From IMG/VR virus record IMGVR_UViG_2854558644_000001: a DNA stretch of 64,000 nt; one strand, 5' to 3'. The notes under the pieces were generated by a model. That model searched no databases, was not told the DNA's origin, and saw only the letters and a list, made by a program, of their open reading frames with translations. A program made the position numbers and the translations under genes. How positions within the stretch are numbered: position 1 is the stretch's first letter; each line of letters begins with the position of its first letter. Origin of the DNA: a virus. Lineage: Duplodnaviria; Heunggongvirae; Uroviricota; Caudoviricetes. Of the stretch, positions 21,477-61,807 are shown one piece after another.

Positions 21477-21491
21477 AGGATGGTGATAAAA

Positions 21492-22502
21492 ATGAAAGGT
21501 AGATTAGAGCATTCATTACAAATTGAAAAAAATATAAAAGAAATATTATCTACATTACCACAATATGTAACTGAATATTATTATGAGTTCAAATCAGGAA
21601 GGCAACCAACAGCATGTAGAGAATATATAAGAAAAATAGCAAAATTTTTATATTTTATTGATTCGAGTGATATTAGACATATTAAAGCTACAGAAGTAAC
21701 AAAGTTTGATATTACTCGTTTTTTGGATTCAATAGAATATATAACAGATAACAATGGAAATAAAAAACAATCTTCATTATCTTATAGGAAGTGTTATCAT
21801 AGTGTACTAAAAAGTTTTTTTGATTTCTTAATAGAGAATGATTATATAACTGAAAATCCTATGAATAAAATAAAAAGGGTTCGTGGAGAAGATTTTGTTA
21901 ATAGAAAATTCTTAGACGAAGATGATTTAAAAGAAGTACTATTGGCTGTAGAATGTGGAGCAGGAAATAGAAGGTCAGTTGCTATGCAATATAAATGGAA
22001 ATCGAGAGACAGAGCAATTATGATGCTATTTATGCAAACTGGAATACGTGAAACAGCATTAAGCGAAATAAATATTGAAGATATCGACTTTGAGAATCAT
22101 TCTATTAAAAGTGTTATAGAGAAAGGACATAAAGAAAAAACATTTTCTATGAGTTCTCAATTAGAAAATGCAGTCTCAGAATGGATAAGTGATCGAAAAA
22201 GAATTATAGATAAAAATGAAGATGCATTATTCATTTCAAAATCAAAAACTCGTATGACACAAAGATCATTGTCGGATATTGTAATAAAATACACAAAGGA
22301 AGCTCTTGGATATTCGGTAACGCCCCATAAGTTAAGAGCATCATTTGCTAATATTATGTTGGAAAAGACAGATGAAAATATATATGTGGTTCAGCAGTTA
22401 TTAGGACATGCTAGAACAGAAACAACAAAAATATATTTGAAAAATAATTTAAATCAGTATAATGATATGGCTGCTGATATAATTGCTAAATCTATTTTTT
22501 AA
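21492..22502 (+). CDS. tyrosine recombinase / phage integrase family protein
   Basis: C-terminal HKLRASFA...LLGHARTETTKIYL (R-H-R-Y catalytic signature). Confidence 0.7.
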   Translation: MKGRLEHSLQIEKNIKEILSTLPQYVTEYYYEFKSGRQPTACREYIRKIAKFLYFIDSSDIRHIKATEVTKFDITRFLDSIEYITDNNGNKKQSSLSYRKCYHSVLKSFFDFLIENDYITENPMNKIKRVRGEDFVNRKFLDEDDLKEVLLAVECGAGNRRSVAMQYKWKSRDRAIMMLFMQTGIRETALSEINIEDIDFENHSIKSVIEKGHKEKTFSMSSQLENAVSEWISDRKRIIDKNEDALFISKSKTRMTQRSLSDIVIKYTKEALGYSVTPHKLRASFANIMLEKTDENIYVVQQLLGHARTETTKIYLKNNLNQYNDMAADIIAKSIF

Positions 22503-24606: not shown

Positions 24607-25407
24607 ATGGCGAGAAAGAAAGTAAATAAAGAATTAACCATAGAAGAACAGTTACAGAAAGAAAGAGAAAATGGATTAAGTTTTATTAAAGATGAAGTGT
24701 TACATCTGAATGAACCAACTTATAGATTTGAAGTAGGAGATAAGGTAAAATATGGTGCATTAAAAGACTGTACAGTAAAAGAAGTGTTATATGATGGAAA
24801 GGTATACGGATTACATTGTATTTCTACTGAAGAAAATTATGGGAATCCTTATGATAGAGAAGTATATAGAGTTGCTGAATGGACTAGCGTTAGACCGCTT
24901 ACTAATGGGGATTCAAGGTTTAGTAAAAATCAGGATGTAAAAATCAATTTTATCAATTCAATGATTGAGTCTCTTATCCATAAATATTATGCATTTGGAG
25001 TAGATATGAATCCTGAATATCAGAGAGGATATGTATGGGAGTTAGAAGATAAACAGTTGCTTATAGACAGTATTTTTAACAATATTGATATAGGTAAATT
25101 TGCTTTTATTCATTTGGATGATAAGAAATGGACTGAGACGGGTAATGGATATGAAATACTTGATGGTAAGCAGAGATTAAGCACAATTATTGATTTTTAC
25201 GAGAATAGATTTCCATATAACGGAGTTTATTACAATGACTTATCGGCTAAAGATAAGAATGTTTTCTTAAACCATCATATTGTACAAGGGGAAGTAAGAG
25301 AAGCAGATAGAAGGGCAGTATTAAAATATTTCTTAATGCTCAATAGAACTGGAAAGTCAATGGATCAGTCACACCTTGATAAAGTTGAGAAAATGTTAGA
25401 AGAATAA
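24607..25407 (+). CDS. DUF262 (ParB-like nuclease superfamily, GmrSD N-domain-like) protein
   Basis: LDGKQRLSTI matches DGQQR signature of DUF262. Confidence 0.55.
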   Translation: MARKKVNKELTIEEQLQKERENGLSFIKDEVLHLNEPTYRFEVGDKVKYGALKDCTVKEVLYDGKVYGLHCISTEENYGNPYDREVYRVAEWTSVRPLTNGDSRFSKNQDVKINFINSMIESLIHKYYAFGVDMNPEYQRGYVWELEDKQLLIDSIFNNIDIGKFAFIHLDDKKWTETGNGYEILDGKQRLSTIIDFYENRFPYNGVYYNDLSAKDKNVFLNHHIVQGEVREADRRAVLKYFLMLNRTGKSMDQSHLDKVEKMLEE

Positions 25408-25514: not shown

Positions 25515-25820
25515 TTGAGTAGATATAAGAATGGAAATCCAAAACATGCAAGCAGATTCATATGTATGAAATGTATGAATGAAAATATGTTAGCCAGTGG
25601 AATTCAGAGACAGAGACAAAGAGAACGAAAACATATTAAAGATTTGTATTGTTTGAAGTGCGGAGAGGTAACGAAGTGTATCGAAGTAAGATTTTGTGAT
25701 TCATATGAAGAAATTTTTGAGGCTGCAAAGATAAAAAGAGAGAATTATTACATAGACGAATATGAAAGTGAGGTTGATGAATATGTGTTACAAAATAGAA
25801 GTACAAAACAAAAATGCTGA
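25515..25820 (+). CDS. zinc-ribbon protein (TTG start)
   Basis: CMKCMNEN...CLKCGE; SD GAGGTGA 7 nt upstream of TTG. Confidence 0.45.
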   Translation: MSRYKNGNPKHASRFICMKCMNENMLASGIQRQRQRERKHIKDLYCLKCGEVTKCIEVRFCDSYEEIFEAAKIKRENYYIDEYESEVDEYVLQNRSTKQKC

Positions 25821-26763
25821 AAAGCTTAATAGGAAGTTGGATGAGTTAAATTTTCCTATATATATGAGAAAATATTTCACTGTTAAAATTGAAAGTAAAG
25901 CAGGTGCTTTAAATTATCTTGGAGTTATTGTAGATTTGCTCAATTGGTTTATTGAAGAGAAACTTATTGATAAAACAAATATTTCAGATATTGAGCCATC
26001 AGATTTTACTGACATTATGGCAGAAGATATCACGTTATATTTAAAGACTAAAGAACAGAATGGAATGTCACCTACGACATTAGAAACTAGAAAACATATA
26101 ATAAGTAGTTTTTGGGATTATATGAGTAGAGTGAAGGGAACTGAAATTAAAGATGGATTCTTTAAAGATGTAACTTATAAAGGGATTCCATCTGGAAACA
26201 AGTTAACTAAAAAACTTCCAACAGAAAAGCAACTTAATGATATGGAAGAAAAAATAATGTGGAAAAAGGATATTTCAGTAAGAAATAGAAATATTGCTAT
26301 TTTTCGAGTATTAAGAGGAACTGGAATAAGAGAATCTGAACTTGCTGGTTTGGATTTATCTAATTTGCATTTAGATGAAGAAATGCCTTATATTACTATT
26401 CTTGGTAAAGGTGTGTACAGAGAAATGCAAAATAGAATGGTATATCTTAGCGGATCTGCTTTAAAAGCTATAAGAGAGTGGTTAGAATACAGAAGCACAT
26501 TAAGTAACATTATTGATACAGAAGCTGTGTTTGTAAATAAAAATGGAACTCGTACAACAGAAAGAAATATCAAACAGATATTTGAGAATTATGGAAATGG
26601 TATAACACCACATATGATGCGTCATTATTATGCTAGTATAATGAACAGAAATGGAAATCTTGCATTTGTACAGCAGCAGTTAGGACATAGTAATGTAAAT
26701 ACAACAGTTAATAATTATGCAAATGGTGCAGTGGGGATGAAAGATGTGTTAAACAATATGTAA
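25777..26763 (+). CDS. tyrosine recombinase / phage integrase family protein
   Basis: HMMRHYYAS...LGHSNVNTTVNNY catalytic signature; overlaps upstream gene by ~40 nt. Confidence 0.7.
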   Translation: MNMCYKIEVQNKNAEKLNRKLDELNFPIYMRKYFTVKIESKAGALNYLGVIVDLLNWFIEEKLIDKTNISDIEPSDFTDIMAEDITLYLKTKEQNGMSPTTLETRKHIISSFWDYMSRVKGTEIKDGFFKDVTYKGIPSGNKLTKKLPTEKQLNDMEEKIMWKKDISVRNRNIAIFRVLRGTGIRESELAGLDLSNLHLDEEMPYITILGKGVYREMQNRMVYLSGSALKAIREWLEYRSTLSNIIDTEAVFVNKNGTRTTERNIKQIFENYGNGITPHMMRHYYASIMNRNGNLAFVQQQLGHSNVNTTVNNYANGAVGMKDVLNNM

Positions 26764-38245: not shown

Positions 38246-38337
38246 AATAGAGAATAATCTAATATAGAAGTAATTCTATTCATGGCTGATCAGCCAAATT
38301 TTCCAAAAAAGTAACAAGAAATATTTTTTCATTCGAT

Positions 38338-38358
38338 TAGGCAGACGTGCCTATTTTC
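38338..38358 (+). terminator. rho-independent terminator
   Basis: TAGGCA-GACG-TGCCTA then TTTTCG. Confidence 0.45.
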
Positions 38359-38452
38359 GAGTGATTTTACAACAAAATAATATTAAGAAGAAAGGATTTA
38401 ACAGTAACTCCTAGGTATAAATGATTGCGCAATCTCTGTAGATTAAAGGATT

Positions 38453-39961
38453 TTGACAGAGAATAAAGAAAAAAATAATTATTGTGAGTTAAGTGTAATT
38501 GAACTTTGCAGTGGCATTGGAGCACAGATGAAGGGTATTGATAATACTCATCTATTTAATGCAAATATGATTGCAACAGCAGATTTAGATAAAGAAGTCG
38601 TGGTTAGTTATGCTGCAATTCATTGTGGTTTGACTAATGAAATGATTGAAAACTATGAAGATTATCCAAGCAAAGAAGAAATGGTAAAACAGCTTACAGA
38701 TAAGAGACTTGGATATGATTTTAAGAAAGATGTTCTGTATGATTGGGAGAAACTTTCACGAAAGAAGGACAAAACGAAAGGTATTGAGAAATATTGGTTA
38801 GCAGACCATATTTCACATAATCTTGGCGATATGATGCAGATTGAGTCACTGCCATATAGTGATTTACTTACATACTCGACTCCATGTACAGATCTTTCCA
38901 TTGCTGGTAAGCAAGAAGGATTAAAGTGGACATGTCATGATTGTGGTTGTGAATATGATCCATCAGAATTAGATGTAGATACTCGTTATACTTGCCCTAA
39001 TTGTGGCAGCCACAATATTAAATCAACTCGTTCAGGTTTATTGTATGAAGTTGAGAGACTTCTTGTAAAAGCAAAAGAGAATAATACATTACCAAAGTAT
39101 TTGCTTATGGAGAATGTAGATGCTCTTGTATCAAAGAAGTATATTGACAGTTTTAAGGATTGGTTGATTCGACTTGATAACTTGGGATATAACTCATATT
39201 ATCAGACAATCAATGCAAAGAATACTGGTATTCCACAGAATCGTAATAGAATCTTCTGTATCTCTATTCGTAAGGATATTGATACCAAGTCATTTGAATT
39301 TCCACAGCCTTTTGATACAGGAATCAGATTAAAGGATTTATTAGAAACAGATAGCAGTGTTCTGGAGAAATATTTCTTATCTGATGAAGTACAAAAAAGA
39401 CTTCAGATAACAGATCCAAAATTTGAAAAGAATGTAGTAGGAACAACAATTGGACAAAATTGTACCAGGTTAGGTAACAGAGATTTAGTTTATCAGCAGG
39501 ATTCAGTAATGGGTGCTTTAGTGGCAACTGATTATAAACAACCAAAACAGATTTTTGCCAATTCAAACGAACCAATACATATTGCTGATTTATGCAGCGA
39601 AAAGTTTCAGAGAATGCATGAGCAGTCTCGCAGAGTATATAGCGAAGATGGAATTGCACCAGCTATGCATACTTGCGGTGGTGGTAATACAGAACCAAAG
39701 GTTGAGAGAGATAATTTAAAAGTCGTAAGAAAGCTTACACCAAAAGAGTGTCATAGGCTCATGGGATTCAATGATATTGATTATGAGAATTGTAAAGCAG
39801 TTGGAATGTCTGATACTCAGGGATATAAACAAAGCGGTAACAGTATAGTGACAACTTGCATCTCTTTGTTGATTGAGCATTTATATAAGGCTCAGTATGA
39901 TAATACATATATTTGTACAGATGAGAAGATGGTAAATTTTCATCAGCCACAAGTGGATTAA
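38453..39961 (+). CDS. DNA (cytosine-5)-methyltransferase with zinc-ribbon insertion
   Basis: motif I LCSGIGAQ, motif IV TPCTDLSIAGK, motif VI LLMENVDAL, motif VIII GIPQNRNRIF, TRD-end RRVYSEDGIAPAMHTCGGG, IX RKLTPKECHRLMGF, X GNSIVTT; starts at TTG (first ATG would delete motif I). Confidence 0.8.
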   Translation: MTENKEKNNYCELSVIELCSGIGAQMKGIDNTHLFNANMIATADLDKEVVVSYAAIHCGLTNEMIENYEDYPSKEEMVKQLTDKRLGYDFKKDVLYDWEKLSRKKDKTKGIEKYWLADHISHNLGDMMQIESLPYSDLLTYSTPCTDLSIAGKQEGLKWTCHDCGCEYDPSELDVDTRYTCPNCGSHNIKSTRSGLLYEVERLLVKAKENNTLPKYLLMENVDALVSKKYIDSFKDWLIRLDNLGYNSYYQTINAKNTGIPQNRNRIFCISIRKDIDTKSFEFPQPFDTGIRLKDLLETDSSVLEKYFLSDEVQKRLQITDPKFEKNVVGTTIGQNCTRLGNRDLVYQQDSVMGALVATDYKQPKQIFANSNEPIHIADLCSEKFQRMHEQSRRVYSEDGIAPAMHTCGGGNTEPKVERDNLKVVRKLTPKECHRLMGFNDIDYENCKAVGMSDTQGYKQSGNSIVTTCISLLIEHLYKAQYDNTYICTDEKMVNFHQPQVD

Positions 39962-40748
39962 GTTCTGCTTGTGGTGATAAACCACAATTAGTTGGTGGTG
40001 TCGGTGAAATAAATTTTGGGAAGCAATTTCGTCAGGGTAATAGAGTATATGATTCAGATCATGTAGCAATGTGTTTATTAGCACAGCCTGTAGGTAATGC
40101 TGGTGGGTTCAGTTACTTGTATACGGTGGCAAAAAATTTTAATTTGCCCTCTATTCTAAATGTAACTTATGAAAATGATGTTCAAAGAGTTGGAACTGTA
40201 AGTGAGAATAGTCTTATTGGCGGTAGAGTTATAGGAATAGAGGGTATTTGTTTCACATTAATGGCTTGTACTCATGGTTATGGTATGGAAAACATCTATG
40301 ACAGTAGAAAGTTGGTGTTAGATGAAAAATTCAGAAAATACACCAAATGAATTGATTTTTGTTGGTGGTATAGATAGTAAGTTATGGTTGGATAATGGCA
40401 AACAGTTATCTAGGAACTTTAAACAAGGATACAGAGTTTACAGTAGTGAAGGAGTTGCCTGTTCTATTACGACAAATGGTGGAGGTCTAGGTGGTTGTAC
40501 TGGACTCTATCTTATAGAAAGAGAGAATAATGAATAAGAATATACAATTTGAATCATTAACTCGAAGTAAGTGGGTTAATGATAAATATAAAGAGTTTTA
40601 TCGTAAAAATGGTTATCTTCCTAAATATTTTGATGTATATAATGGTACAGAAATTACAGATTATGCACCTACATTGTCAACAAGAAGTAATGGAGCAATG
40701 GGAAGTGGTACTGTATTGATTATGATTGATAAACATGATATTGAATAG
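39925..40748 (+). pseudogene. tandem C5-MTase TRD-end fragments in three overlapping frames (decayed multispecific MTase or silent TRD cassettes)
   Basis: four copies of TRD-end block: QGNRVYDSDHVAMCLLAQPVGNAGG, GGRVIGIEGICFTLMACTHGYG, QGYRVYSSEGVACSITTNGGGLGG, ITDYAPTLSTRSNGAMGSG; no motifs I-X. Confidence 0.5.
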
Positions 40749-40754
40749 AAAATA

Positions 40755-40797
40755 ACAATATATAGCGATTATAAATACAATACATACTATATATTGT
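40755..40797. repeat. 11-bp perfect inverted repeat ACAATATATAG/CTATATATTGT (21-nt spacer)
   Basis: seen directly upstream of gene 40860. Confidence 0.6.
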
Positions 40798-40859
40798 ATA
40801 AAAATTAAGACCAAAAGAAAGCGGAATTTCTTGCGATGAAACATGAAGGGAGAAAGAAT

Positions 40860-41588
40860 ATGTATCCAGAATACGATGATTTTTATGAGCCAAGTGAAGG
40901 CGAAATGTTTTTTGATGAAATGAAAGAAAAGTTCAGAGAGATTTTACGTGAAGATGTAAACTCTGAAATTAACAGATTAACAGAAGAAAATGCAGAATTA
41001 AGGCAAAAGGTTAAAGAGTACAATGATAAAAATTTAAATCTTTCTTGTAGAGAAAGAGATTTGCAGTACAAAATGGACAATTACAAACGAGAGGTAGAAA
41101 ACGATTTTTATAATAAAACAATGGAAGAAGTTTTTGAGAAATTATTAGAAGACTCAGAAGTGTGGTATGCAGAACATGTTCCTCATGAGAAACCAAAATG
41201 TAATTTATGTAACGAAGAAAGAAAACTCGTTGCAGTATATCCAAATGGTGAAACTGTGACCAAGGAGTGTGAATGTTCTCGACCAACATATATTTATGAG
41301 CCAGTAATTTCATTGAATAAAGAGATTAAGTTTCATAAAGCATATAAGCCAAGATACAGTGATAAAAAGAAAATCTATTTTACTAAAAATCACAGACCAA
41401 ACAAGGATTATGCAGATGCGTATGATTATTATAGTGAATTCAGAATAGAAAATATTTTTGATGATTTTAATGATGATGTAATTGCATATCACAATGGTAA
41501 AAGATATGGAGAAAAAATTGCATTCAGAAGCAAAGAGGCTTGTCAGAAATATTGTGATTGGCTTAATGTTAATGAGGAGTATAAGTAA
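40860..41588 (+). CDS. hypothetical coiled-coil protein with CxxC pair
   Basis: ORF+SD GAAGGGAG. Confidence 0.55.
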   Translation: MYPEYDDFYEPSEGEMFFDEMKEKFREILREDVNSEINRLTEENAELRQKVKEYNDKNLNLSCRERDLQYKMDNYKREVENDFYNKTMEEVFEKLLEDSEVWYAEHVPHEKPKCNLCNEERKLVAVYPNGETVTKECECSRPTYIYEPVISLNKEIKFHKAYKPRYSDKKKIYFTKNHRPNKDYADAYDYYSEFRIENIFDDFNDDVIAYHNGKRYGEKIAFRSKEACQKYCDWLNVNEEYK

Positions 41589-44327: not shown

Positions 44328-45071
44328 ATGTTAGAAATTAACAAAATATACAATGAAGATTGCCTTGAAGGTATGAAAAAGATTGATGATAAATCGGTCG
44401 ATGCGATTATTACGGATCTTCCTTATGGACAAACTTCACGAAATAAATGGGATTCAGTTATTCCATTTAAACCATTATGGGAACAGTATGAAAGAATCAT
44501 TAAAAACAATGGTGCAATTATTCTATTTGCGAATGGTATGTTTACTGCAGATTTAATGCAAAGCAATCGTAAGCTTTGGAAATATAATCTGATTTGGGAG
44601 AAAACACAGCCAACAGGATTTCTAAATGCTAAGAAAATGCCATTACGCTCACACGAAGATATCTGTATTTTCTATAAAAAACTTCCAACTTATAATCCAC
44701 AGAAAACAACTGGACATCCAAGAAAAGTTAGCAAAGCAGAACATAAGACTAACTGTAAAGAGACTACTGATTATGGAGAACATGGTCTTACTACTTATGA
44801 TAGTACAGAAAGATACCCTAAGTCGGTATGGACATTTGCAAAGGATATCCAAAAGTCGGCACTTCATCCGACACAAAAGCCTGTAGCACTGATTGAAGAG
44901 TTGATCAAGACCTACACAAATCCAGGAGATTTAGTTCTTGATTCATGTGCAGGAAGTTGTACAACTGCAGTTGCAGCTTTGAATACAGGTAGAAATTACA
45001 TATGTTTTGAGAAGGACAAGGATATTTTTGAGGTTGGAAGTAAGAGAGTGAGAGAATACATAAATGAGTAA
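44328..45071 (+). CDS. beta-class DNA methyltransferase (N6-adenine or N4-cytosine; N6_N4_Mtase family)
   Basis: motif IV AIITDLPYG N-terminal and motif I VLDSCAGSCTTAVAA C-terminal. Confidence 0.75.
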   Translation: MLEINKIYNEDCLEGMKKIDDKSVDAIITDLPYGQTSRNKWDSVIPFKPLWEQYERIIKNNGAIILFANGMFTADLMQSNRKLWKYNLIWEKTQPTGFLNAKKMPLRSHEDICIFYKKLPTYNPQKTTGHPRKVSKAEHKTNCKETTDYGEHGLTTYDSTERYPKSVWTFAKDIQKSALHPTQKPVALIEELIKTYTNPGDLVLDSCAGSCTTAVAALNTGRNYICFEKDKDIFEVGSKRVREYINE

Positions 45072-48482: not shown

Positions 48483-49370
48483 TTGAAACAAAAATATGAA
48501 TGTATTGTATCACCCATATTTTATATGGGTAATAAGAAAAAACTTATTCAAAGGGGATTAATAGAACTATTCCCAAAGGACATTGATTGCTTTATTGATG
48601 TTTTTGCAGGTAGTTCAGTAGTCTCTATGAATACAAAAGCTAATAAATATTTCATTAATGATAATGATAAAAACTTAAAGCAGTTATATAAGTTATTCAA
48701 AATATATAATTCTGATACAATTATTAATCATATCATTTCCAGAATTGATGAATATGGATTAGCGCAAGAAAGAACAAGTCATAAAGTATTTAATGATGAC
48801 AGAAAAGATAGATATAAAAATTCTTATTATGAATTTAGGAATTATTATAACACTCATAAAAATGCTCTTGATTTCTACACGCTTATGTTTTATTCATTTT
48901 CACAACAGTTTAGGTTCAATGATAAAGGTGAATTTAATATGCCATGTGGTAACGATTGTTTTTCTGATAAAAATCAAAAATATATTCGTAATGGTTGCAC
49001 ATTTTATCATTCTGATAATGTCCATATATTCAGTATGGACTTTCGCTCAATTCCAATAGATTCGATTACAACTAAAGATTTTGTATATTTAGATCCTCCA
49101 TATTTTAATACCACTGCTACATACAACGAGGCAGGTGGTTGGACTGAAAATGACGAAAATGATTTATATGATTTTTGTGAAAGACTTTCTGAGAATAATA
49201 TAAAATGGGGAATGTCTAATGTGTTTGAGAATAAAGGAATTATAAATCAAAAGTTGGTTGATTGGTGTGATAAGAACAATTTAAATGTATATACATTTGA
49301 TAAATTTACATATATGGCTTGTGGTAAAGGTAATTCAAATGCTAAAGAAGTATTTATAACAAACTATTAG
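48483..49370 (+). CDS. Dam-like (D12 class) N6-adenine DNA methyltransferase
   Basis: N-terminal SPIFYMGNKKKLI (FLKWAGGK-like), FAGSSVV motif I, YLDPPYF motif IV; TTG start needed to retain N-terminal motif. Confidence 0.75.
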   Translation: MKQKYECIVSPIFYMGNKKKLIQRGLIELFPKDIDCFIDVFAGSSVVSMNTKANKYFINDNDKNLKQLYKLFKIYNSDTIINHIISRIDEYGLAQERTSHKVFNDDRKDRYKNSYYEFRNYYNTHKNALDFYTLMFYSFSQQFRFNDKGEFNMPCGNDCFSDKNQKYIRNGCTFYHSDNVHIFSMDFRSIPIDSITTKDFVYLDPPYFNTTATYNEAGGWTENDENDLYDFCERLSENNIKWGMSNVFENKGIINQKLVDWCDKNNLNVYTFDKFTYMACGKGNSNAKEVFITNY

Positions 49371-51013: not shown

Positions 51014-51096
51014 CAGGAATGAAGCATTTCCTTCGGAGTTTTGTAAAAATAAGAGAGAATACATAGGTGACATTAAATTATAAGGAGATATGTTTT

Positions 51097-51720
51097 ATGC
51101 GAAGAAAAGATAAAAAATTTAAAATCCAATACAAAGTCGATGATAAGGTATTGTCTTTGAGGTTCGAGACAATACGGGATTTTTTAGAAACCGATTTTCC
51201 TAAGAATAATAATTCAATGTCACCTACAAACGATACGGAATTATTATCCGTAACTTGGCACAAGCAACCGCTATTTGAAAAATGTTTTAAATTAGGTGAA
51301 GTAAAAACGCTTTTAAAAGATTTTAATCCTACAAAATTACTTAGGAAAGAAATCTATTCAATAGAAGAAGCCAGAGATAAGGTTAAAGATGTTTTATTTG
51401 AGAAAGATAAAAAACTTGTAAAAGTTGATTTTGATGGAGATTTGATTAAGGGCAATAGCCAAAGATATCAAACATTTTTTACTAAAGGTTGTAAATGTGT
51501 AGTTTGTGGAATTGAAGGAAAATATTTTGCAAAAGAAAGACATTTACAGGATAAAAGTTATCATCTGAATTTGTATGCAGTTGATAATAATGGTGATGAA
51601 ATTTTAATGACAAAAGATCATATTATGCCACGCTCAAAAGGTGGTATTGATGATATTAGTAACTATCAAACGATGTGTAAGCTTTGTAATGAGGCAAAAG
51701 GCAACAAATTAGAAGATTAA
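51097..51720 (+). CDS. HNH endonuclease
   Basis: C-terminal CKCVVCG...DHIMPRSKGG...CKLCNEAKGNK HNH His-Me finger. Confidence 0.7.
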   Translation: MRRKDKKFKIQYKVDDKVLSLRFETIRDFLETDFPKNNNSMSPTNDTELLSVTWHKQPLFEKCFKLGEVKTLLKDFNPTKLLRKEIYSIEEARDKVKDVLFEKDKKLVKVDFDGDLIKGNSQRYQTFFTKGCKCVVCGIEGKYFAKERHLQDKSYHLNLYAVDNNGDEILMTKDHIMPRSKGGIDDISNYQTMCKLCNEAKGNKLED

Positions 51721-51789: not shown

Positions 51790-53109
51790 ATGTATTGTGC
51801 TTATATCACAACATTAAAAGGATTAAGAAAACATAGTAACGCTGATAGATTACAGTGTGTAGAAGTATTTGGACAGAATGTAATTGTAGATTTGAGTTAT
51901 CAGGAAGGACAGAAAGTAGTCTTCTTCCCATCTGATGGTCAGTTGTCACTTGAATACGCAACAGATAATAACCTTGTTAGGAAGAAAGACGAGAATGGAA
52001 ACAATATTGGTGGCTACATGGATGCTGAAAAAAGAAACGTAACTGCCATTAGACTTAGAGGCGAGAAGTCAGAAGGTCTTGTGTTGCCAATTGAGACACT
52101 TGCTAAGTATACAGATATTTCAAAATTAAAAGATGGCGATCAGATTACAGTTCTTGGTGGTCATGAAATTTGTCAGAAATATATCCCAAGAGGAAAGAGT
52201 CGTTCAAAAAACAATGGAAACAATTCAAATAAGAAGAACAAGTTTCAGAAAGAGACAATATCATATCCATTTTTTGAAGAACATAAGGATACTGCACAGC
52301 TTGCATATAATATGTCAGCATTTAAGCCAGGAGATACGATTTATATTACTCGTAAGCTCCACGGAACATCAGCTCGTACTATGAAGACTGTCAAGGTTAC
52401 AAAGAAGAATAGTAAGCTGAGAAAGTTTTTACATATAAAGCCAAAGGTTATAAGAGAAGTTTCTGTTGTATCTGGTAGCAGAAGAGTTGTGTTAAAGGAT
52501 ATGACAAAGAATGATGGATATTATGCTGATAATGGATTTAGAAAGAAGTACCACGATTTATTAAAAGATAAGCTTCCTGAAGGGGCTGAAATTTTCTATG
52601 AAATTGTTGGTTATGTAAATGAAACAACACCTATTATGGGTTCTGTGTCTAATAAAGGTGTTAAAGAAAAGAAATTTACAAAGAAGTTTGGCGACACTAC
52701 AACATTCTCATATGGTTGTGAACCAGGTGAAAATGAGATGTATGTATATCGAATGACAATGACAACAGCAGATGGAACAGTTGTTGAAGTACCTTGGGAG
52801 ACTGTAGAAGTATGGTGTGACAAGTTAGGTGTTAAGCATGTACCTGATTTAGAGAAGTTTATCTATACTACACCAGAAGATTTGAAAGAAAGAGTAAATA
52901 AATATCTTGATGGTATGCCAGCAGATGAAATCGGCAAGACACATGTTGCCGAAGGTATAGTTGTTCGTATTGATAACAGAGCAACATTCACGGCTTATAA
53001 GGATAAGGTGTTTGAATTTAAGGTAATTGAGGGAATCGCCAAAGATACATCTGATGTACCTGATATGGAAGAAGCTGAAGAATTATTTGAGGAGACATTA
53101 AATGAATAA
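51790..53109 (+). CDS. ATP-dependent RNA ligase (Rnl family, KxHG motif I)
   Basis: YITRKLHGTSAR nucleotidyltransferase motif I like T4 Rnl2 KIHGTN; adjacent to polynucleotide kinase. Confidence 0.55.
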   Translation: MYCAYITTLKGLRKHSNADRLQCVEVFGQNVIVDLSYQEGQKVVFFPSDGQLSLEYATDNNLVRKKDENGNNIGGYMDAEKRNVTAIRLRGEKSEGLVLPIETLAKYTDISKLKDGDQITVLGGHEICQKYIPRGKSRSKNNGNNSNKKNKFQKETISYPFFEEHKDTAQLAYNMSAFKPGDTIYITRKLHGTSARTMKTVKVTKKNSKLRKFLHIKPKVIREVSVVSGSRRVVLKDMTKNDGYYADNGFRKKYHDLLKDKLPEGAEIFYEIVGYVNETTPIMGSVSNKGVKEKKFTKKFGDTTTFSYGCEPGENEMYVYRMTMTTADGTVVEVPWETVEVWCDKLGVKHVPDLEKFIYTTPEDLKERVNKYLDGMPADEIGKTHVAEGIVVRIDNRATFTAYKDKVFEFKVIEGIAKDTSDVPDMEEAEELFEETLNE

Positions 53110-53992
53110 ACCTACATTATGGGTTATGTGTGGTTTGAGTGGTAGTGGCAAATCAACCATTGCCACTCAGATTGCTAATGAAAATCCAAATACAATAATC
53201 GTATCATCAGATGCAATTCGTGAAGAATTAACTGGTAATTACGAAGACCAAGAACATAATGAAGAAGTGTTTAAAATTTTTCACAATAGAATCCGTAAGA
53301 ATTTGGAGAATAAAAAGAATGTAATTGCAGATGCAACTAATCTGACTATGAAATCTCGTAGAGCAATTATGATGAAAGTAAATGGTTTAAATGTTAGAAA
53401 AGTGTGTGTGATTATTCCAAAGCCATTTGAACAGTGTAAGATTGATAATAAAAATCGTGAGCATCCTGTTCCTAATGAAGTATTGGATAAACAGATTAGA
53501 AGATTTCAGATCCCATTTTACGAAGAAAAATTTGATGAGATTCAGATAAATGTATTTCATAAAGAGAATCGTTTAACTCTTGGAGAAATGTTTTCTATGA
53601 TGGAAGGGTTTGATCAGAAAAACCCTCATCATACTATGGATTTATATAATCACTCATTTCATACATATGAGTTATTTAGTAGTAAATGCTATCCAGCAAA
53701 ATATAATATAGCTGCATTATTACACGATTTTGGAAAAATGTATTGTCAAACATTTGATGAGAATGGCATAGCTCATTACTATGAACATCATGCAATCGGT
53801 TCTTATTTAATTTTAGAGAACCTATCAGGTATATTTTACGAAAATATTGGTGACATATGTTTTCTTATCAACTATCATATGATGCCTTTTAGTTGGGATA
53901 CTGATAAAGCAAAGCAGCGTTGGAAAGAAAGATTTGGAGAATATAAATATAAGATGCTTTTAGATTTTAACGAATGTGATAGAGCGAGGTAA
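53102..53992 (+). CDS. polynucleotide kinase (P-loop) fused to HD-domain phosphohydrolase
   Basis: Walker A GLSGSGKST; HD motifs HHTMDLYNH...LLHDFGK. Confidence 0.65.
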   Translation: MNKPTLWVMCGLSGSGKSTIATQIANENPNTIIVSSDAIREELTGNYEDQEHNEEVFKIFHNRIRKNLENKKNVIADATNLTMKSRRAIMMKVNGLNVRKVCVIIPKPFEQCKIDNKNREHPVPNEVLDKQIRRFQIPFYEEKFDEIQINVFHKENRLTLGEMFSMMEGFDQKNPHHTMDLYNHSFHTYELFSSKCYPAKYNIAALLHDFGKMYCQTFDENGIAHYYEHHAIGSYLILENLSGIFYENIGDICFLINYHMMPFSWDTDKAKQRWKERFGEYKYKMLLDFNECDRAR

Positions 53993-60715: not shown

Positions 60716-61807
60716 ATGAAAGACATTAAGATTGTAATAGGTGCTAACTTTGGAGATTGTGGAAAGGGATTAATGACAGATTATTTCTCACAGAAACCTA
60801 ATAGTATTGTTGTTTGTTCAAATGGTGGTGCTCAGAGAGGACATACCGTAACAACGCCTGATGGAATCAGACATGTCTTTCATCATTTTGGATCTGGAAC
60901 ATTCAATCATGCAAGTACATATTTATCTGAGGATTTTATTGTTAATCCAATTATCTTTAAGCAGGAATATGATGAATTGATGAAATTAGGATATATTACG
61001 AATGTTTATATCAATCAAAATTGTATGTTGACTACACCTTTTGATATGATGGCAAATCAGATTATAGAAGAAAATCGTGGAAAAAATAAACATGGTAGTT
61101 GTGGCTTGGGAATTTTTGAAACTATCAAAAGATATAAAGCTGGCATAACTGATGTAGATAATCATATCAGGGAATACTACTTAGAACAATTTGAAAGAGA
61201 GAATATTATATTAACAGATGAATGGTCAAAAATATTCCTTGATAATGGTATATTTGAACACTTTTTAGATGATTGGGATTTTATGAATAATCACTCATTG
61301 GCTATATCAGATAATTATTTCTTAAATCAATTTGACAATATTGTATTTGAAGCTGCACAAGGTTTATTGCTTGATCAGAACAACACAGAATATTTTCCAC
61401 ATCTAACACCGTCTAATACAGGTATTAAAAATCCCAAGAGAATAATTGAAAATGTTGAATGGAATGATGAGATAAATATTGAAACTTGTTATGTATCTCG
61501 TACTTATTTAACAAGACATGGTGCTGGTAAATTCCCATCTGAATGTAATAAGAGATTTATCAACGAATATATGTTTGATAAAACAAATGTGCCAAATCCA
61601 TTCCAGGATACATTGAGATATGGAACACTGGATTTAGGAGAATTATATAGTAGATGCTCTAATGATATAGGAAACTTTGGAGATAAAAAATCAATCACCA
61701 TTACACATTGTAATGAATATGATTGGGATAATGATAAATTGATTGAGTTATTCAAGGATTGGAATATTTATTACTCAGATGGTGAAACACATAATGATGT
61801 GAACTGA
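60716..61807 (+). CDS. adenylosuccinate synthetase family protein (PurA/PurZ-like, short form)
   Basis: N-terminal VIGANFGDCGKGLMTDYF (GDEGKGK-like P-loop) and NGGAQRGHTV...HVFHHFGSG (QGGHNAGHT...LIPSG-like); 363 aa. Confidence 0.7.
   Translation: MKDIKIVIGANFGDCGKGLMTDYFSQKPNSIVVCSNGGAQRGHTVTTPDGIRHVFHHFGSGTFNHASTYLSEDFIVNPIIFKQEYDELMKLGYITNVYINQNCMLTTPFDMMANQIIEENRGKNKHGSCGLGIFETIKRYKAGITDVDNHIREYYLEQFERENIILTDEWSKIFLDNGIFEHFLDDWDFMNNHSLAISDNYFLNQFDNIVFEAAQGLLLDQNNTEYFPHLTPSNTGIKNPKRIIENVEWNDEINIETCYVSRTYLTRHGAGKFPSECNKRFINEYMFDKTNVPNPFQDTLRYGTLDLGELYSRCSNDIGNFGDKKSITITHCNEYDWDNDKLIELFKDWNIYYSDGETHNDVN

What the first reader, a model, noticed from the sequence alone, without database searches (positions are those of the whole stretch)
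39925..40748. Array of at least four extra C5-MTase TRD-end blocks in three reading frames immediately downstream of the C5-MTase
M.HhaI-type enzymes have a conserved block at the end of the target-recognition domain, (Q)GxR[VI]Y...G[IV][AS].T[LI].A..GGG. The main gene carries it twice (GNRDLVYQQDSVMGALVATDYKQ and RRVYSEDGIAPAMHTCGGGN) before motifs IX and X. After the stop, four more copies occur: QGNRVYDSDHVAMCLLAQPVGNAGG and GGRVIGIEGICFTLMACTHGYG (frame 1, open from 39925), QGYRVYSSEGVACSITTNGGGLGG (frame 2, 40322..40537) and ITDYAPTLSTRSNGAMGSG (frame 0, 40530..40748). None has motifs I-X and their starts are weak. This is either the frameshifted remains of a multispecific (SPbeta/phi3T-like multi-TRD) methyltransferase, or a bank of silent TRD cassettes that could be recombined into the expressed gene to switch methylation specificity. 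The second alternative is analogous to hsdS shufflons but for a C5-MTase, which would be new. Two tyrosine recombinases are encoded in the same genome.
Basis: partly seen in the sequence, partly recalled or inferred. Interest (0 to 1): 0.75.

Follow-up and report, generated by a model that had tools for sequence, protein, structure and literature searches.

The report
Frameshift-appended specificity modules on phage methyltransferase
A gut-phage cytosine DNA methyltransferase gene ends in a conserved ribosomal-frameshift signal leading into a swappable array of extra DNA-recognition modules, which are live, selected coding sequence rather than gene debris or silent spare parts.

Summary
Four TRD-like blocks follow the C5-MTase (38453-39961) in three frames. 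Blocks A, B and C match TRDs that sit before motif IX in full-length enzymes. D is only TRD-like by profile.

The interpretation needs revising. The blocks are not decay products: dN/dS is 0.05-0.14 for A and C and 0.1-0.3 for most B comparisons. They are not a shufflon-like silent bank either. There are no inverted repeats, no DNA homology to the expressed TRDs, and the recombinases lie more than 12 kb away.

The start-less -1 ORF holding A+B overlaps the MTase 3' end at an in-phase heptamer A_AAT_TTT (39934-39940). Five nt downstream is a 12-bp hairpin (39946-39975) with the MTase stop in its loop. All 46 relatives carrying a downstream extension keep the heptamer. The 19 cassette-less relatives lack it. 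The hairpin shows compensatory changes. A few relatives carry post-motif-X TRDs in frame.

Best reading: -1 programmed frameshifting yields a 632-aa MTase with two extra C-terminal TRDs. C and D (ATG plus SD-like sequences) are probably translated as about 70-aa stand-alone TRD proteins. Arrays are gained, lost and shuffled between near-identical phages.

Expression and methylation specificity are inferred, not shown.

The parts
38453..39961 (+). C5-cytosine DNA methyltransferase ORF, 502 aa, TTG start. Motif I 38501-38521, motif IV 38879-38899, Zn-ribbon insert 38933-39007, motif VI 39107-39118, motif VIII 39236-39250. Two internal TRD blocks at 39473-39541 and 39629-39688. Motif IX 39728-39769, motif X 39836-39850.
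   Evidence: PF00145 E 1.2e-49. Motif coordinates.
39934..39940 (+). Slippery heptamer A_AAT_TTT in the X_XXY_YYZ phase of the MTase frame (codons AAT 39935-37, TTT 39938-40). Proposed -1 frameshift site.
   Evidence: Sequence. Present in phase in 46 related loci that carry a downstream extension. Absent from the 19 cassette-less loci.
39946..39975 (+). 12-bp stem-loop (GCCACAAGUGGA / UCUGCUUGUGGU, loop UUAAGU) starting 5 nt after the heptamer. The MTase stop codon TAA (39959-39961) sits in the loop. Proposed frameshift stimulator.
   Evidence: RNAfold, z = -4.55 against shuffles. On 8 distinct junctions 94.8% of cells pair, against 37-55% when the partner is slid. Four pairs show compensatory changes. 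A further C-G to U-A change is seen in L087.
39925..40350 (+). -1 frame ORF with no start codon. It encodes a Ser/Gly-rich linker (FSSATSGLSSACGDKPQ), TRD cassette A (39988-40128) and TRD cassette B (40141-40317), with stop TGA at 40348-40350. Predicted trans-frame product is 632 aa.
   Evidence: dN/dS is 0.05-0.09 for A and 0.11-0.3 for most B comparisons. TRD homology.
40134..40140 (+). Second AAATTTT at the A-to-B junction, in phase with the A/B frame. B continues in the same frame, and a slip here would meet TAA immediately. No hairpin follows, so this is probably a relic of a cassette junction.
   Evidence: (repeat D18).
40322..40537 (+). Cassette C ORF, 71 aa, ATG start overlapping the end of the A/B ORF. 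It is an M.HhaI-like TRD (core 40349-40519).
   Evidence: M.HhaI 237-269 match. rho11s/H2 at 8e-8. 298 representative clusters. dN/dS 0.05-0.14 in four of five same-array comparisons; 0.82 for L012, on only 8 differences. The ATG is conserved in all six B-to-C arrays, with the B stop 1 nt upstream or 26 nt downstream of it. SD-like pairing is -7.6 kcal/mol, against a gene median of -6.55.
40530..40748 (+). Cassette D ORF, 72 aa, ATG overlapping the C stop (ATGAATAA). TRD-like module (core 40548-40730).
   Evidence: Family of 60 clusters, mostly 62-72 aa stand-alone ORFs, with 21 invariant columns. hhalign to the MTase TRD region gives 66% probability. SD-like pairing is -5.2 kcal/mol. Relatives have D-type ORFs behind GGAGG or GAGGTGA Shine-Dalgarno sequences.

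Best explanation
The locus encodes one C5-cytosine DNA methyltransferase core plus a modular set of add-on target-recognition domains (TRDs) placed after motif X.

Step 1 (inferred from sequence signals). Most ribosomes stop at TAA 39959-39961 and make the 502-aa enzyme with its two internal TRD blocks. A fraction slip -1 on A_AAU_UUU (39934-39940), stimulated by the 12-bp hairpin that starts 5 nt downstream. These ribosomes continue through a flexible linker into cassettes A and B and give a 632-aa isoform.

Step 2 (inferred, less certain). Cassettes C and D are translated from their own ATGs, which overlap the preceding stops. This would be translational coupling, giving about 70-aa stand-alone TRD proteins.

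Step 3 (inferred from family knowledge). In multispecific phage C5-MTases each TRD confers one target sequence on a shared catalytic core. By analogy, the extra TRDs would widen the set of sites the phage self-methylates and so protect it from more host restriction systems. Cassette C most resembles the GCGC-reading TRD of M.HhaI.

Step 4 (shown by comparison). The array is gained, lost and reshuffled between otherwise near-identical phages. Breakpoints cluster just after the hairpin. The frameshift junction therefore also acts as a conserved docking point, where new cassettes can be tried without damaging the zero-frame enzyme.
For: 1. The -1 ORF has no start codon and opens only 3 codons before the heptamer. 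In L052 it opens 1 codon before.
2. The heptamer is in X_XXY_YYZ phase in 46 loci with a -1 ORF of 33-183 codons. It is absent from the 19 cassette-less loci of the 45%-identity lineage. In that lineage, cassette A (L052/L066) arrives together with the heptamer.
3. The hairpin lies 5 nt downstream and folds with z = -4.55. On 8 junctions 94.8% of cells are paired, against 37-55% in slid controls, and 4 pairs carry compensatory changes. It is kept even where a different cassette supplies the 3' arm (L027, L031, L035 second junction, L077, L087).
4. Purifying selection acts in the cassette frames. For A, dN/dS is 0.05-0.09 with dS above 2. For C it is 0.04-0.14 in most comparisons, and WIN against L029/L038/L008 gives 8-13 synonymous versus 3 non-synonymous differences. 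Most shifted-frame controls for the divergent A and C comparisons give ratios of about 1 or above.
5. Natural in-frame post-motif-X TRDs exist. P0127/P0139/P0196 carry cassette G in the zero frame before the NF junction (P0139 has 199 member sequences). P0208 has linker plus cassette E fused in frame. L034 has A+F in one 600-aa ORF.
6. L035 has two serial -1 junctions, MTase to A to C, each with heptamer and hairpin.
7. All four cassettes are TRD homologues.
8. C and D have conserved ATGs, SD-like sequences and stop-start overlaps. D-type ORFs in other phages sit behind perfect SD sequences. Stand-alone C-type ORFs are widespread.
9. Turnover is fast. L077, L078 and L080 share an identical MTase protein but have different downstream contents.
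Against: No protein, ribosome-profiling or methylome data exist. Frameshifting and its efficiency are inferred only from sequence signatures.

TRDs after motif X, or supplied in trans without motifs IX and X, have no experimental precedent that I know of. AlphaFold2 gave unusable models (pLDDT 46 and 60), so nothing shows that the appended TRDs can dock on the catalytic core.

Some relatives carry lesions in the extension: a nonsense codon in A (L010), a frameshift in B (L001/L004), a shortened -1 ORF (L039) and a broken H cassette (L078). In L080 and L070 the junction leads into non-TRD sequence. Selection is therefore not absolute.

Part of the low dN/dS between distant lineages could have accumulated while the cassettes resided in canonical MTases before transfer.

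One in-frame example, L034, comes from a genome whose alternative assembly (L084) has obvious indel errors.

The B-to-C and C-to-D transitions are +1, not -1, so the expression of C and D rests on weaker evidence. One of the five same-array C comparisons gives dN/dS 0.82, on 8 differences.
Confidence: 0.68

Rival explanations
1. Frameshift decay. The downstream blocks are the dead remains of a once longer multispecific MTase or of neighbouring MTase genes, and they are not translated.
For: Lesions occur in some relatives (L010 nonsense, L001/L004 and L038 frameshifts, L078 truncation). L027 keeps a degenerate motif IX remnant after cassette C. L087 keeps a motif I remnant in its MTase tail. 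Both show that recombination scars exist here. Pfam sees nothing in the short ORFs.
Against: dN/dS of 0.05-0.14 for A and C in their own frames, including most comparisons within one array context. A conserved heptamer plus a covarying hairpin in 46 loci. Conserved ATG and SD-like sequences for C and D. In-frame fusions in relatives.
Confidence: 0.07
2. Silent cassette bank. The cassettes are unexpressed donors that are copied or recombined into the expressed TRD region to switch specificity within a phage population, like pilS/pilE or hsdS shufflons.
For: The array is highly variable between near-identical phages. Short shared motifs such as GTTGGTGGT (LVGG/FVGG) recur at cassette heads. Two tyrosine recombinases are in the window.
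Against: There is no DNA homology between the cassettes and the internal TRD region. There are no inverted repeats, and all cassettes share one orientation. No A-D type cassette was found inside the VIII-IX region of any of the 74 related loci. The recombinases are 12-17 kb away. The cassettes carry translation signals and are under purifying selection, which silent donors would need frequent use to maintain.
Confidence: 0.07
3. The heptamer and hairpin are primarily a recombination or docking sequence, or some other RNA/DNA signal, rather than a frameshift site. The first cassettes are passengers that function only after rare in-frame fusion by indel, which would be a DNA-level on/off switch.
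For: Breakpoints cluster right after the hairpin. In-frame variants differ by single-nucleotide indels near the junction. The hairpin persists in the in-frame L034.
Against: AAATTTT is too short for efficient slipped-strand phase variation. 46 of 48 junction-bearing viral loci are out of frame, yet the cassettes stay under selection. The exact phase of the heptamer and the 5-nt spacing to the hairpin are what -1 frameshifting requires, not what recombination requires.
Confidence: 0.12
4. All cassettes, including A and B, are made as separate small proteins from non-canonical or internal starts, with no recoding.
For: C- and D-type TRDs clearly occur as stand-alone ORFs elsewhere. Split C5-MTases are known (M.AquI, M.EcoHK31I; PMC3404938).
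Against: The -1 ORF has no ATG/GTG/TTG before 40069. That ATG cuts cassette A in half and has no SD (+0.4 kcal/mol). In L052 the frame opens one codon before the heptamer.
Confidence: 0.04

Closest known systems
Multispecific C5-MTases of Bacillus phages (M.SPRI, M.Phi3TI, M.Rho11sI, M.H2I, M.SPbeta; Trautner laboratory)
   Same: One catalytic core serves several tandem, modular TRDs of about 40-70 aa. They are phage-borne and presumed to act against restriction. Cassettes A and C share sequence similarity with a rho11s/H2 TRD. Inactive 'pseudodomains' are also known in that family (from my own knowledge).
   Different: In those enzymes all TRDs lie between motifs VIII and IX in one uninterrupted ORF. 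Here the additional TRDs lie after motif X. They are reached through a frame change or encoded as separate mini-ORFs, and they are exchanged as cassettes at a conserved junction.
-1 programmed ribosomal frameshifting that adds a C-terminal domain (phage tail assembly chaperones G/GT, dnaX tau/gamma, IS3 orfA-orfB)
   Same: An X_XXY_YYZ heptamer near the 3' end of the upstream ORF, a downstream stem-loop at 5 nt, an overlapping start-less -1 ORF, and two isoforms from one mRNA. The heptamer class A_AAU_UUN is used by Rous sarcoma virus gag-pol (from my own knowledge).
   Different: The gene family is a DNA methyltransferase, and no report turned up in the full-text searches. The appended part is a swappable specificity module. 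Serial junctions (L035) could give a ladder of isoforms.
Two-subunit C5-MTases M.AquI and M.EcoHK31I, and fragment complementation of M.SssI, M.BspRI and M.HhaI
   Same: They show that parts of a C5-MTase, including part of the variable region or motif IX, can be supplied as a separate polypeptide (PMC3404938). L081 in this study is a natural split of 493 aa plus a 68-aa motif IX-X ORF.
   Different: The small ORFs here (C, D) contain a TRD only, with no conserved catalytic motif. They accompany an already complete enzyme.
hsdS shufflons and phase-variable Type I/III specificity genes
   Same: Diversification of methylation specificity through modular target-recognition cassettes.
   Different: Those systems use inverted repeats plus an adjacent recombinase, or simple-sequence repeats, and switch within a clone. 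None of these features is present here. The variation seen is between genomes.

Membership tests
C5-cytosine DNA methyltransferase (PF00145) | Conserved motifs I (FxGxG), IV (PC), VI (ENV), VIII (QxRxR), IX and X (GNS) in canonical order | tested here: met
   PF00145 E 1.2e-49. Motifs located at ELCSGIG, TPCTDLS, MENV, QNRNR, RKLTPKECHRLMGF and GNSIV. This applies to the main ORF only, not to the cassettes.
Multispecific phage C5-MTase (SPR/phi3T/rho11s/H2 type) | Several TRDs in tandem between motif VIII and motif IX of a single polypeptide | tested here: not met
   The main ORF has two TRD-like blocks between VIII and IX. The four blocks in question lie after motif X, in other frames.
Multispecific phage C5-MTase (SPR/phi3T/rho11s/H2 type) | TRD sequence homology to characterised multispecific enzymes | tested here: met
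   A against rho11s/H2 at 8e-4. C against rho11s/H2 at 8e-8 over aa about 250-290. A, B and C types sit internally in the 604-aa P0322.
Multispecific phage C5-MTase (SPR/phi3T/rho11s/H2 type) | Each TRD independently confers methylation of a distinct target sequence | not testable with these tools
   This needs methylome or restriction-protection assays.
-1 programmed ribosomal frameshift site | X_XXY_YYZ slippery heptamer in the zero-frame phase | tested here: met
   A_AAT_TTT at 39934-39940, in phase here and in 46 related loci.
-1 programmed ribosomal frameshift site | Stable downstream RNA structure 5-9 nt after the heptamer, conserved by covariation | tested here: met
   12-bp hairpin after a 5-nt spacer, z = -4.55. 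94.8% of cells paired and 4 compensatory pairs on 8 junctions. That sample is small.
-1 programmed ribosomal frameshift site | Overlapping -1 ORF without its own start, conserved and under purifying selection | tested here: met
-1 programmed ribosomal frameshift site | Trans-frame protein product detected, with heptamer-dependent efficiency | not testable with these tools
   This needs a reporter assay, mass spectrometry or ribosome profiling.
Shufflon / invertible or gene-conversion specificity cassettes | Inverted or direct repeats bounding the cassettes and shared with the expression site | tested here: not met
   Only chance-level short repeats were found in 38400-40900.
Shufflon / invertible or gene-conversion specificity cassettes | Dedicated site-specific recombinase adjacent to the cassettes | tested here: not met
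   The nearest Phage_integrase ORFs are at 21480-22502 and 25762-26763. Neighbouring ORFs have no recombinase domain.
Shufflon / invertible or gene-conversion specificity cassettes | Arrangement heterogeneity within one clonal population | not testable with these tools
   Only consensus assemblies are available. Between-genome variation is large.
Split (two-subunit) C5-MTase, M.AquI / M.EcoHK31I type | The small subunit carries conserved motif(s) IX and/or X that the large subunit lacks | tested here: not met
   The main ORF has all motifs. C and D contain a TRD only. A true split of this kind is seen in the unrelated locus L081.

The most novel reading that the evidence does not exclude
A 'plug-in' specificity system for a C5-cytosine methyltransferase. 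One catalytic core would receive recognition domains in three ways at once: internal TRDs in cis, C-terminal TRDs added to a sub-population of molecules by one or more serial -1 ribosomal frameshifts, and about 70-aa free-standing TRD proteins acting in trans. The frameshift junction (heptamer plus hairpin) would double as a universal recombination socket, through which gut phages trade specificity cassettes on very short time scales.
Probability: 0.35. Interest if true: 0.85.

Novelty: new variant of a known kind. Interest (0 to 1): 0.72.

Why it matters
Multispecific C5-MTases have been a classic model for modular DNA recognition since the 1980s. In every described case the TRDs are fixed between motifs VIII and IX of one polypeptide.

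If TRDs work when hung on the C-terminus after motif X, or when supplied as separate 70-aa proteins, the structural rules for how a TRD engages the catalytic domain need revising. It would also suggest a simple engineering route to programmable methyltransferases.

Recoding would add a new functional class to bacterial and phage -1 frameshifting. It would tune the ratio of enzyme isoforms with different target sets.

Practically, gene callers miss or mis-call these ORFs. Some were called with genetic code 4, and others were left as about 750-nt 'empty' gaps. Phage anti-restriction repertoires in gut metagenomes are therefore under-annotated.

The locus also gives a tractable example of very rapid cassette exchange in the arms race between Lachnospiraceae phages and host restriction systems.

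Tried and rejected
1. DNA search of 38300-41000 against GenBank phages found no match. Relatives had to be found through the protein.
2. Pfam on the short ORFs found nothing. PDB phmmer on A+B gave only chance hits. The PDB profile search with the D family also gave only chance hits.
3. AlphaFold2 of the 632-aa trans-frame product with a 40-sequence alignment gave mean pLDDT 46, and the TRD and extension region about 25-30. This is unusable.
4. AlphaFold2 of cassette C alone gave pLDDT 60, and Foldseek against the PDB found no match. No structural conclusion was drawn.
5. Rfam found no known RNA family in 38300-41000. The promoter/terminator scan found nothing above background between the MTase and the cassettes.
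6. I considered a +1 frameshift at B-to-C (AAA_UGA) and at C-to-D. No consistent shifty site exists. In L008/L038 the B stop moves to 1 nt before the C ATG, which fits coupling rather than a fixed recoding site.
7. I considered TGA recoding (code 4), because database ORFs begin 'MYRWEDGKF'. I rejected it as a gene-caller artefact, because it would extend the frames by only a few codons.
8. I considered transcriptional slippage or phase variation at AAATTTT. The runs of 3 A and 4 T are too short.
9. Literature searches for frameshifting in C5-MTase genes found no report.
Full report
**What is there**

The window carries a 502-aa C5-cytosine DNA methyltransferase at 38453-39961 (PF00145, E 1.2e-49). 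It has all canonical motifs in order, a CxxC...CxxC zinc-ribbon insert between motifs IV and V, and two TRD-like blocks between motifs VIII and IX.

I call the blocks A (39988-40128), B (40141-40317), C (core 40349-40519, ORF 40322-40537) and D (core 40548-40730, ORF 40530-40748).

A and B share one frame. That frame is open from 39925, overlaps the MTase 3' end and contains no ATG/GTG/TTG before 40069.

**Are they really TRDs?**

Yes for A, B and C. D is only TRD-like.

- A hits a phage C5-MTase at 1e-12 and the Bacillus phage rho11s/H2 multispecific enzymes at 8e-4. In Dulem virus 39 the match lies inside the MTase ORF, upstream of its last 70 or so residues.
- C matches the recognition-loop segment of M.HhaI, residues 237-269, and rho11s/H2 at 8e-8. 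An exhaustive search found 298 representative clusters. Many are full-length multi-TRD MTases with the match immediately before motif IX.
- One such enzyme, P0322 (604 aa), holds a B-like TRD at 336-386 (pairwise E 5e-10), a C-like TRD at about 430-490 and an A-like TRD at 497-545 (78% identity, 2e-27). Motif IX follows.
- D has no hit in GenBank phages. It belongs to a strongly conserved family of 60 clusters with 21 invariant columns. The family profile aligns to the MTase TRD region with hhalign probability 66%. In P0062 a D-like module precedes an A-type TRD and motifs IX-X.

**Relatives**

No GenBank phage matches at the DNA level. A protein-guided scan of IMG/VR returned 74 loci, mostly from gut-metagenome contigs of about 100-160 kb. 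Hosts are Lachnospiraceae: an 81%-identical MTase is annotated in Coprococcus phoceensis, and another lies in Eubacterium plexicaudatum ASF492.

BLASTN of the downstream 874 nt shows discrete modules that are present, absent or reordered. The census gives these arrays: A only; A+B; A+B+C+D; C only; B only; D+B+C+D2; E+B+C; A then C; or nothing. The first cassette can be A, B, C, D or E.

Three contigs encode the identical MTase protein but carry an intact cassette H, a broken H, or no cassette. Turnover is therefore fast. Breakpoints cluster just after the sequence ...TCTG(C/T)TTGTGGTGA.

**The frame change is a conserved signal, not an accident**

In every extension-bearing locus the first cassette is in the -1 frame relative to the MTase. 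The overlap contains AAATTTT in the phase A_AAT_TTT (window 39934-39940).

This in-phase heptamer is present in 46 loci, each followed by a -1 ORF of 33-183 codons. It is absent from the 19 cassette-less loci of a 45%-identity lineage. In that lineage, the members that carry cassette A (L052, L066) end '...FEVDTENFI*' instead of '...FEVDTETRKETKC*'. Their -1 frame opens one codon before the heptamer and runs through cassette A into the old C-terminus. The cassette therefore arrives with its own slip site.

Five nucleotides after the heptamer begins a 12-bp hairpin (39946-39957 with 39964-39975). The MTase stop codon lies in its loop. The region folds with z = -4.55 against dinucleotide shuffles.

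On eight distinct junctions 94.8% of cells pair, against 37-55% when the partner is slid. Four pairs show changes on both sides. L087 adds a C-G to U-A change. The stem is kept even where a different cassette (C, H or J) provides the 3' arm and encodes different amino acids. L035 has two successive junctions of this kind, MTase to A to C.

A heptamer in phase, a 5-nt spacer, a covarying stem and a start-less overlapping -1 ORF together form the textbook signature of -1 programmed ribosomal frameshifting.

**The cassettes are under selection**

Nei-Gojobori estimates give dN/dS of 0.05-0.09 for A, with dS exceeding 2 between lineages, and 0.04-0.14 for C in most comparisons. For the more divergent A and C comparisons, most shifted-frame controls give ratios of about 1 or above.

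The signal holds among phages sharing the same A-B-C-D array. WIN against L029, L038 and L008 gives 8-13 synonymous versus 3 non-synonymous differences in C. L012, with only 8 differences, gives 0.82.

B is less constrained (mostly 0.11-0.3). D has too few comparisons.

Lesions do occur: a nonsense codon in L010, frameshifts in L001/L004 and L038, and a truncated H in L078. Selection is therefore not absolute.

**In-frame counterparts**

- P0127, P0139 and P0196 carry another TRD-like cassette (G) in the zero frame after motif X, followed by the NF junction. P0139 has 199 member sequences.
- P0208 has the linker and cassette E fused in frame and ends with a second junction.
- L034 has MTase, A and F in one ORF. 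L034 deserves caution, because the alternative assembly of the same strain has indels in this gene.

These cases show that the position after motif X is a legitimate place for TRDs in this family.

**Cassettes C and D**

From B to C and from C to D the frame moves +1, and no consistent shifty site exists. Both ORFs start with ATG.

The C ATG is conserved in all six B-to-C arrays. The B stop lies either 26 nt downstream or 1 nt upstream of it. The D ATG overlaps the C stop (ATGAATAA).

Predicted pairing with the anti-SD sequence is -7.6 kcal/mol for C and -5.2 kcal/mol for D. The median for the window's long ORFs is -6.55, and the mean for random ATGs is -2.4. The ORF-caller's ATG at 40069 scores +0.4.

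Elsewhere, D-type ORFs sit behind GGAGG (L087) or GAGGTGA (L081) Shine-Dalgarno sequences. Stand-alone C-type ORFs of 57-105 aa are numerous and diverse.

I therefore think C and D are made as separate TRD mini-proteins by translational coupling. This is less secure than the frameshift.

**Mechanism proposed**

One mRNA would give:
- the 502-aa enzyme;
- a 632-aa isoform with linker, A and B added after ...EKMVNF;
- the small proteins C and D.

By analogy with the Bacillus phage enzymes, each TRD would add one target sequence. C resembles the GCGC-reading TRD of M.HhaI. Frameshifting would set the ratio of isoforms, and it would let new cassettes be acquired without risk to the zero-frame enzyme.

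Shown here: the sequence signals, their conservation, the covariation, the selection, the modular exchange and the in-frame homologues. Inferred: actual frameshifting, expression of C and D, activity of TRDs placed after motif X or acting in trans, and the target sequences.

Decay is contradicted by the selection and by the conserved signal.

A shufflon-like silent bank is contradicted on several counts. There are no bounding repeats and no homology to the expressed TRD region. All cassettes share one orientation. No A-D types occur in the VIII-IX region of any relative. The two tyrosine recombinases lie 12-17 kb away. The cassettes carry translation signals.

What survives of that idea is that specificity modules are indeed exchanged, but between genomes.

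**Comparison with known systems and novelty**

The closest relatives in kind are the multispecific C5-MTases of phages SPR, phi3T, rho11s, H2 and SPbeta. Their TRDs all lie between motifs VIII and IX of one ORF.

C-terminal extension by -1 frameshifting is known from the phage G/GT chaperones, dnaX and IS3 elements. Two-subunit C5-MTases (M.AquI, M.EcoHK31I) and fragment complementation show that the fold tolerates splitting (PMC3404938).

Full-text searches found no report of recoding in a C5-MTase gene or of free-standing TRD proteins. I therefore class this as a new variant of a known kind.

**Dead ends**

AlphaFold2 models were too poor to use. Rfam and the terminator and promoter scans were uninformative.

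Noticed in passing
window 60716-61807: A 363-aa adenylosuccinate-synthetase homologue (PF00709, E 1e-34) in a phage genome. Short phage PurA homologues of this kind include PurZ, the enzyme that starts 2-aminoadenine (Z-base) DNA synthesis. I did not check whether this one is PurZ.
   Followed up: no
window 44328-45071 and 48483-49370: Two further DNA methyltransferases lie downstream: an N6_N4_Mtase family ORF and a D12-class Dam-type ORF. Relatives show still other MTases here (a second C5-MTase in L077; N6_N4 and D12 genes in L080). The region is a variable methyltransferase island.
   Followed up: partly
window 21480-22502, 24607-25407, 25762-26763: Two Phage_integrase-family tyrosine recombinases flank an ORF with a GmrSD_N (Type IV restriction, N-terminal) domain. 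They are more than 12 kb from the MTase locus.
   Followed up: partly
window 38933-39007: The MTase carries a CxxC...CxxC zinc-ribbon insert between motifs IV and V (weak HypA-like Pfam hit, E 4e-5). The same insert occurs in many related multi-TRD MTases (for example P0319, P0344, P0418).
   Followed up: no
proteins P0142, P0214, P0304, P0332, P0384 (database relatives): Some relatives carry a large insertion at motif IV, between FPC and the rest of the motif, giving proteins of about 780-860 aa. P0142 and P0214 have a precomputed Pfam intein-splicing domain (PF14890). P0304 (567 aa) looks like a fragment that begins inside such an insertion.
   Followed up: no
L078 and L080, 2625-3659 (also split in L079): A reverse-transcriptase gene (RVT_1, 344 aa) sits about 2.3 kb upstream of the MTase in some phages with the identical MTase protein. 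It is absent in L077. It could be a group II intron, a retron or a DGR; I did not examine it.
   Followed up: no
L081 1296-3198 (NCBI GCA_016852305.1 contig): An unrelated multi-TRD C5-MTase is naturally split into a 493-aa ORF (motifs I-VIII plus TRDs) and a 68-aa ORF holding only motifs IX and X. A 65-aa D-type TRD ORF with its own SD follows.
   Followed up: partly
L027 5665-5784; L087 about 2250-2330: Recombination scars. L027 has a degenerate motif IX remnant (NEVRKLNTTVADRLQTLPDNYTF) directly after cassette C. L087 has a motif-I-like remnant (LSSFFSGIGAFEVAL) inside the C-terminal tail of its MTase.
   Followed up: partly
proteins P0001, P0009, P0027, P0041, P0047: Database ORFs for the -1 frame begin 'MYRW...' or 'MYRR...'. 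Gene callers translated the upstream in-frame TGA as Trp (code 4) or chose spurious starts. In other contigs the cassette region is left as an unannotated gap of up to about 750 nt (L077 7509-8256).
   Followed up: partly
window 51790-53992: An RNA ligase ORF is followed by an AAA_33/KTI12/HD (polynucleotide kinase-phosphatase-like) ORF. This looks like a phage tRNA-repair module. An HNH endonuclease ORF lies just upstream (51067-51720).
   Followed up: no
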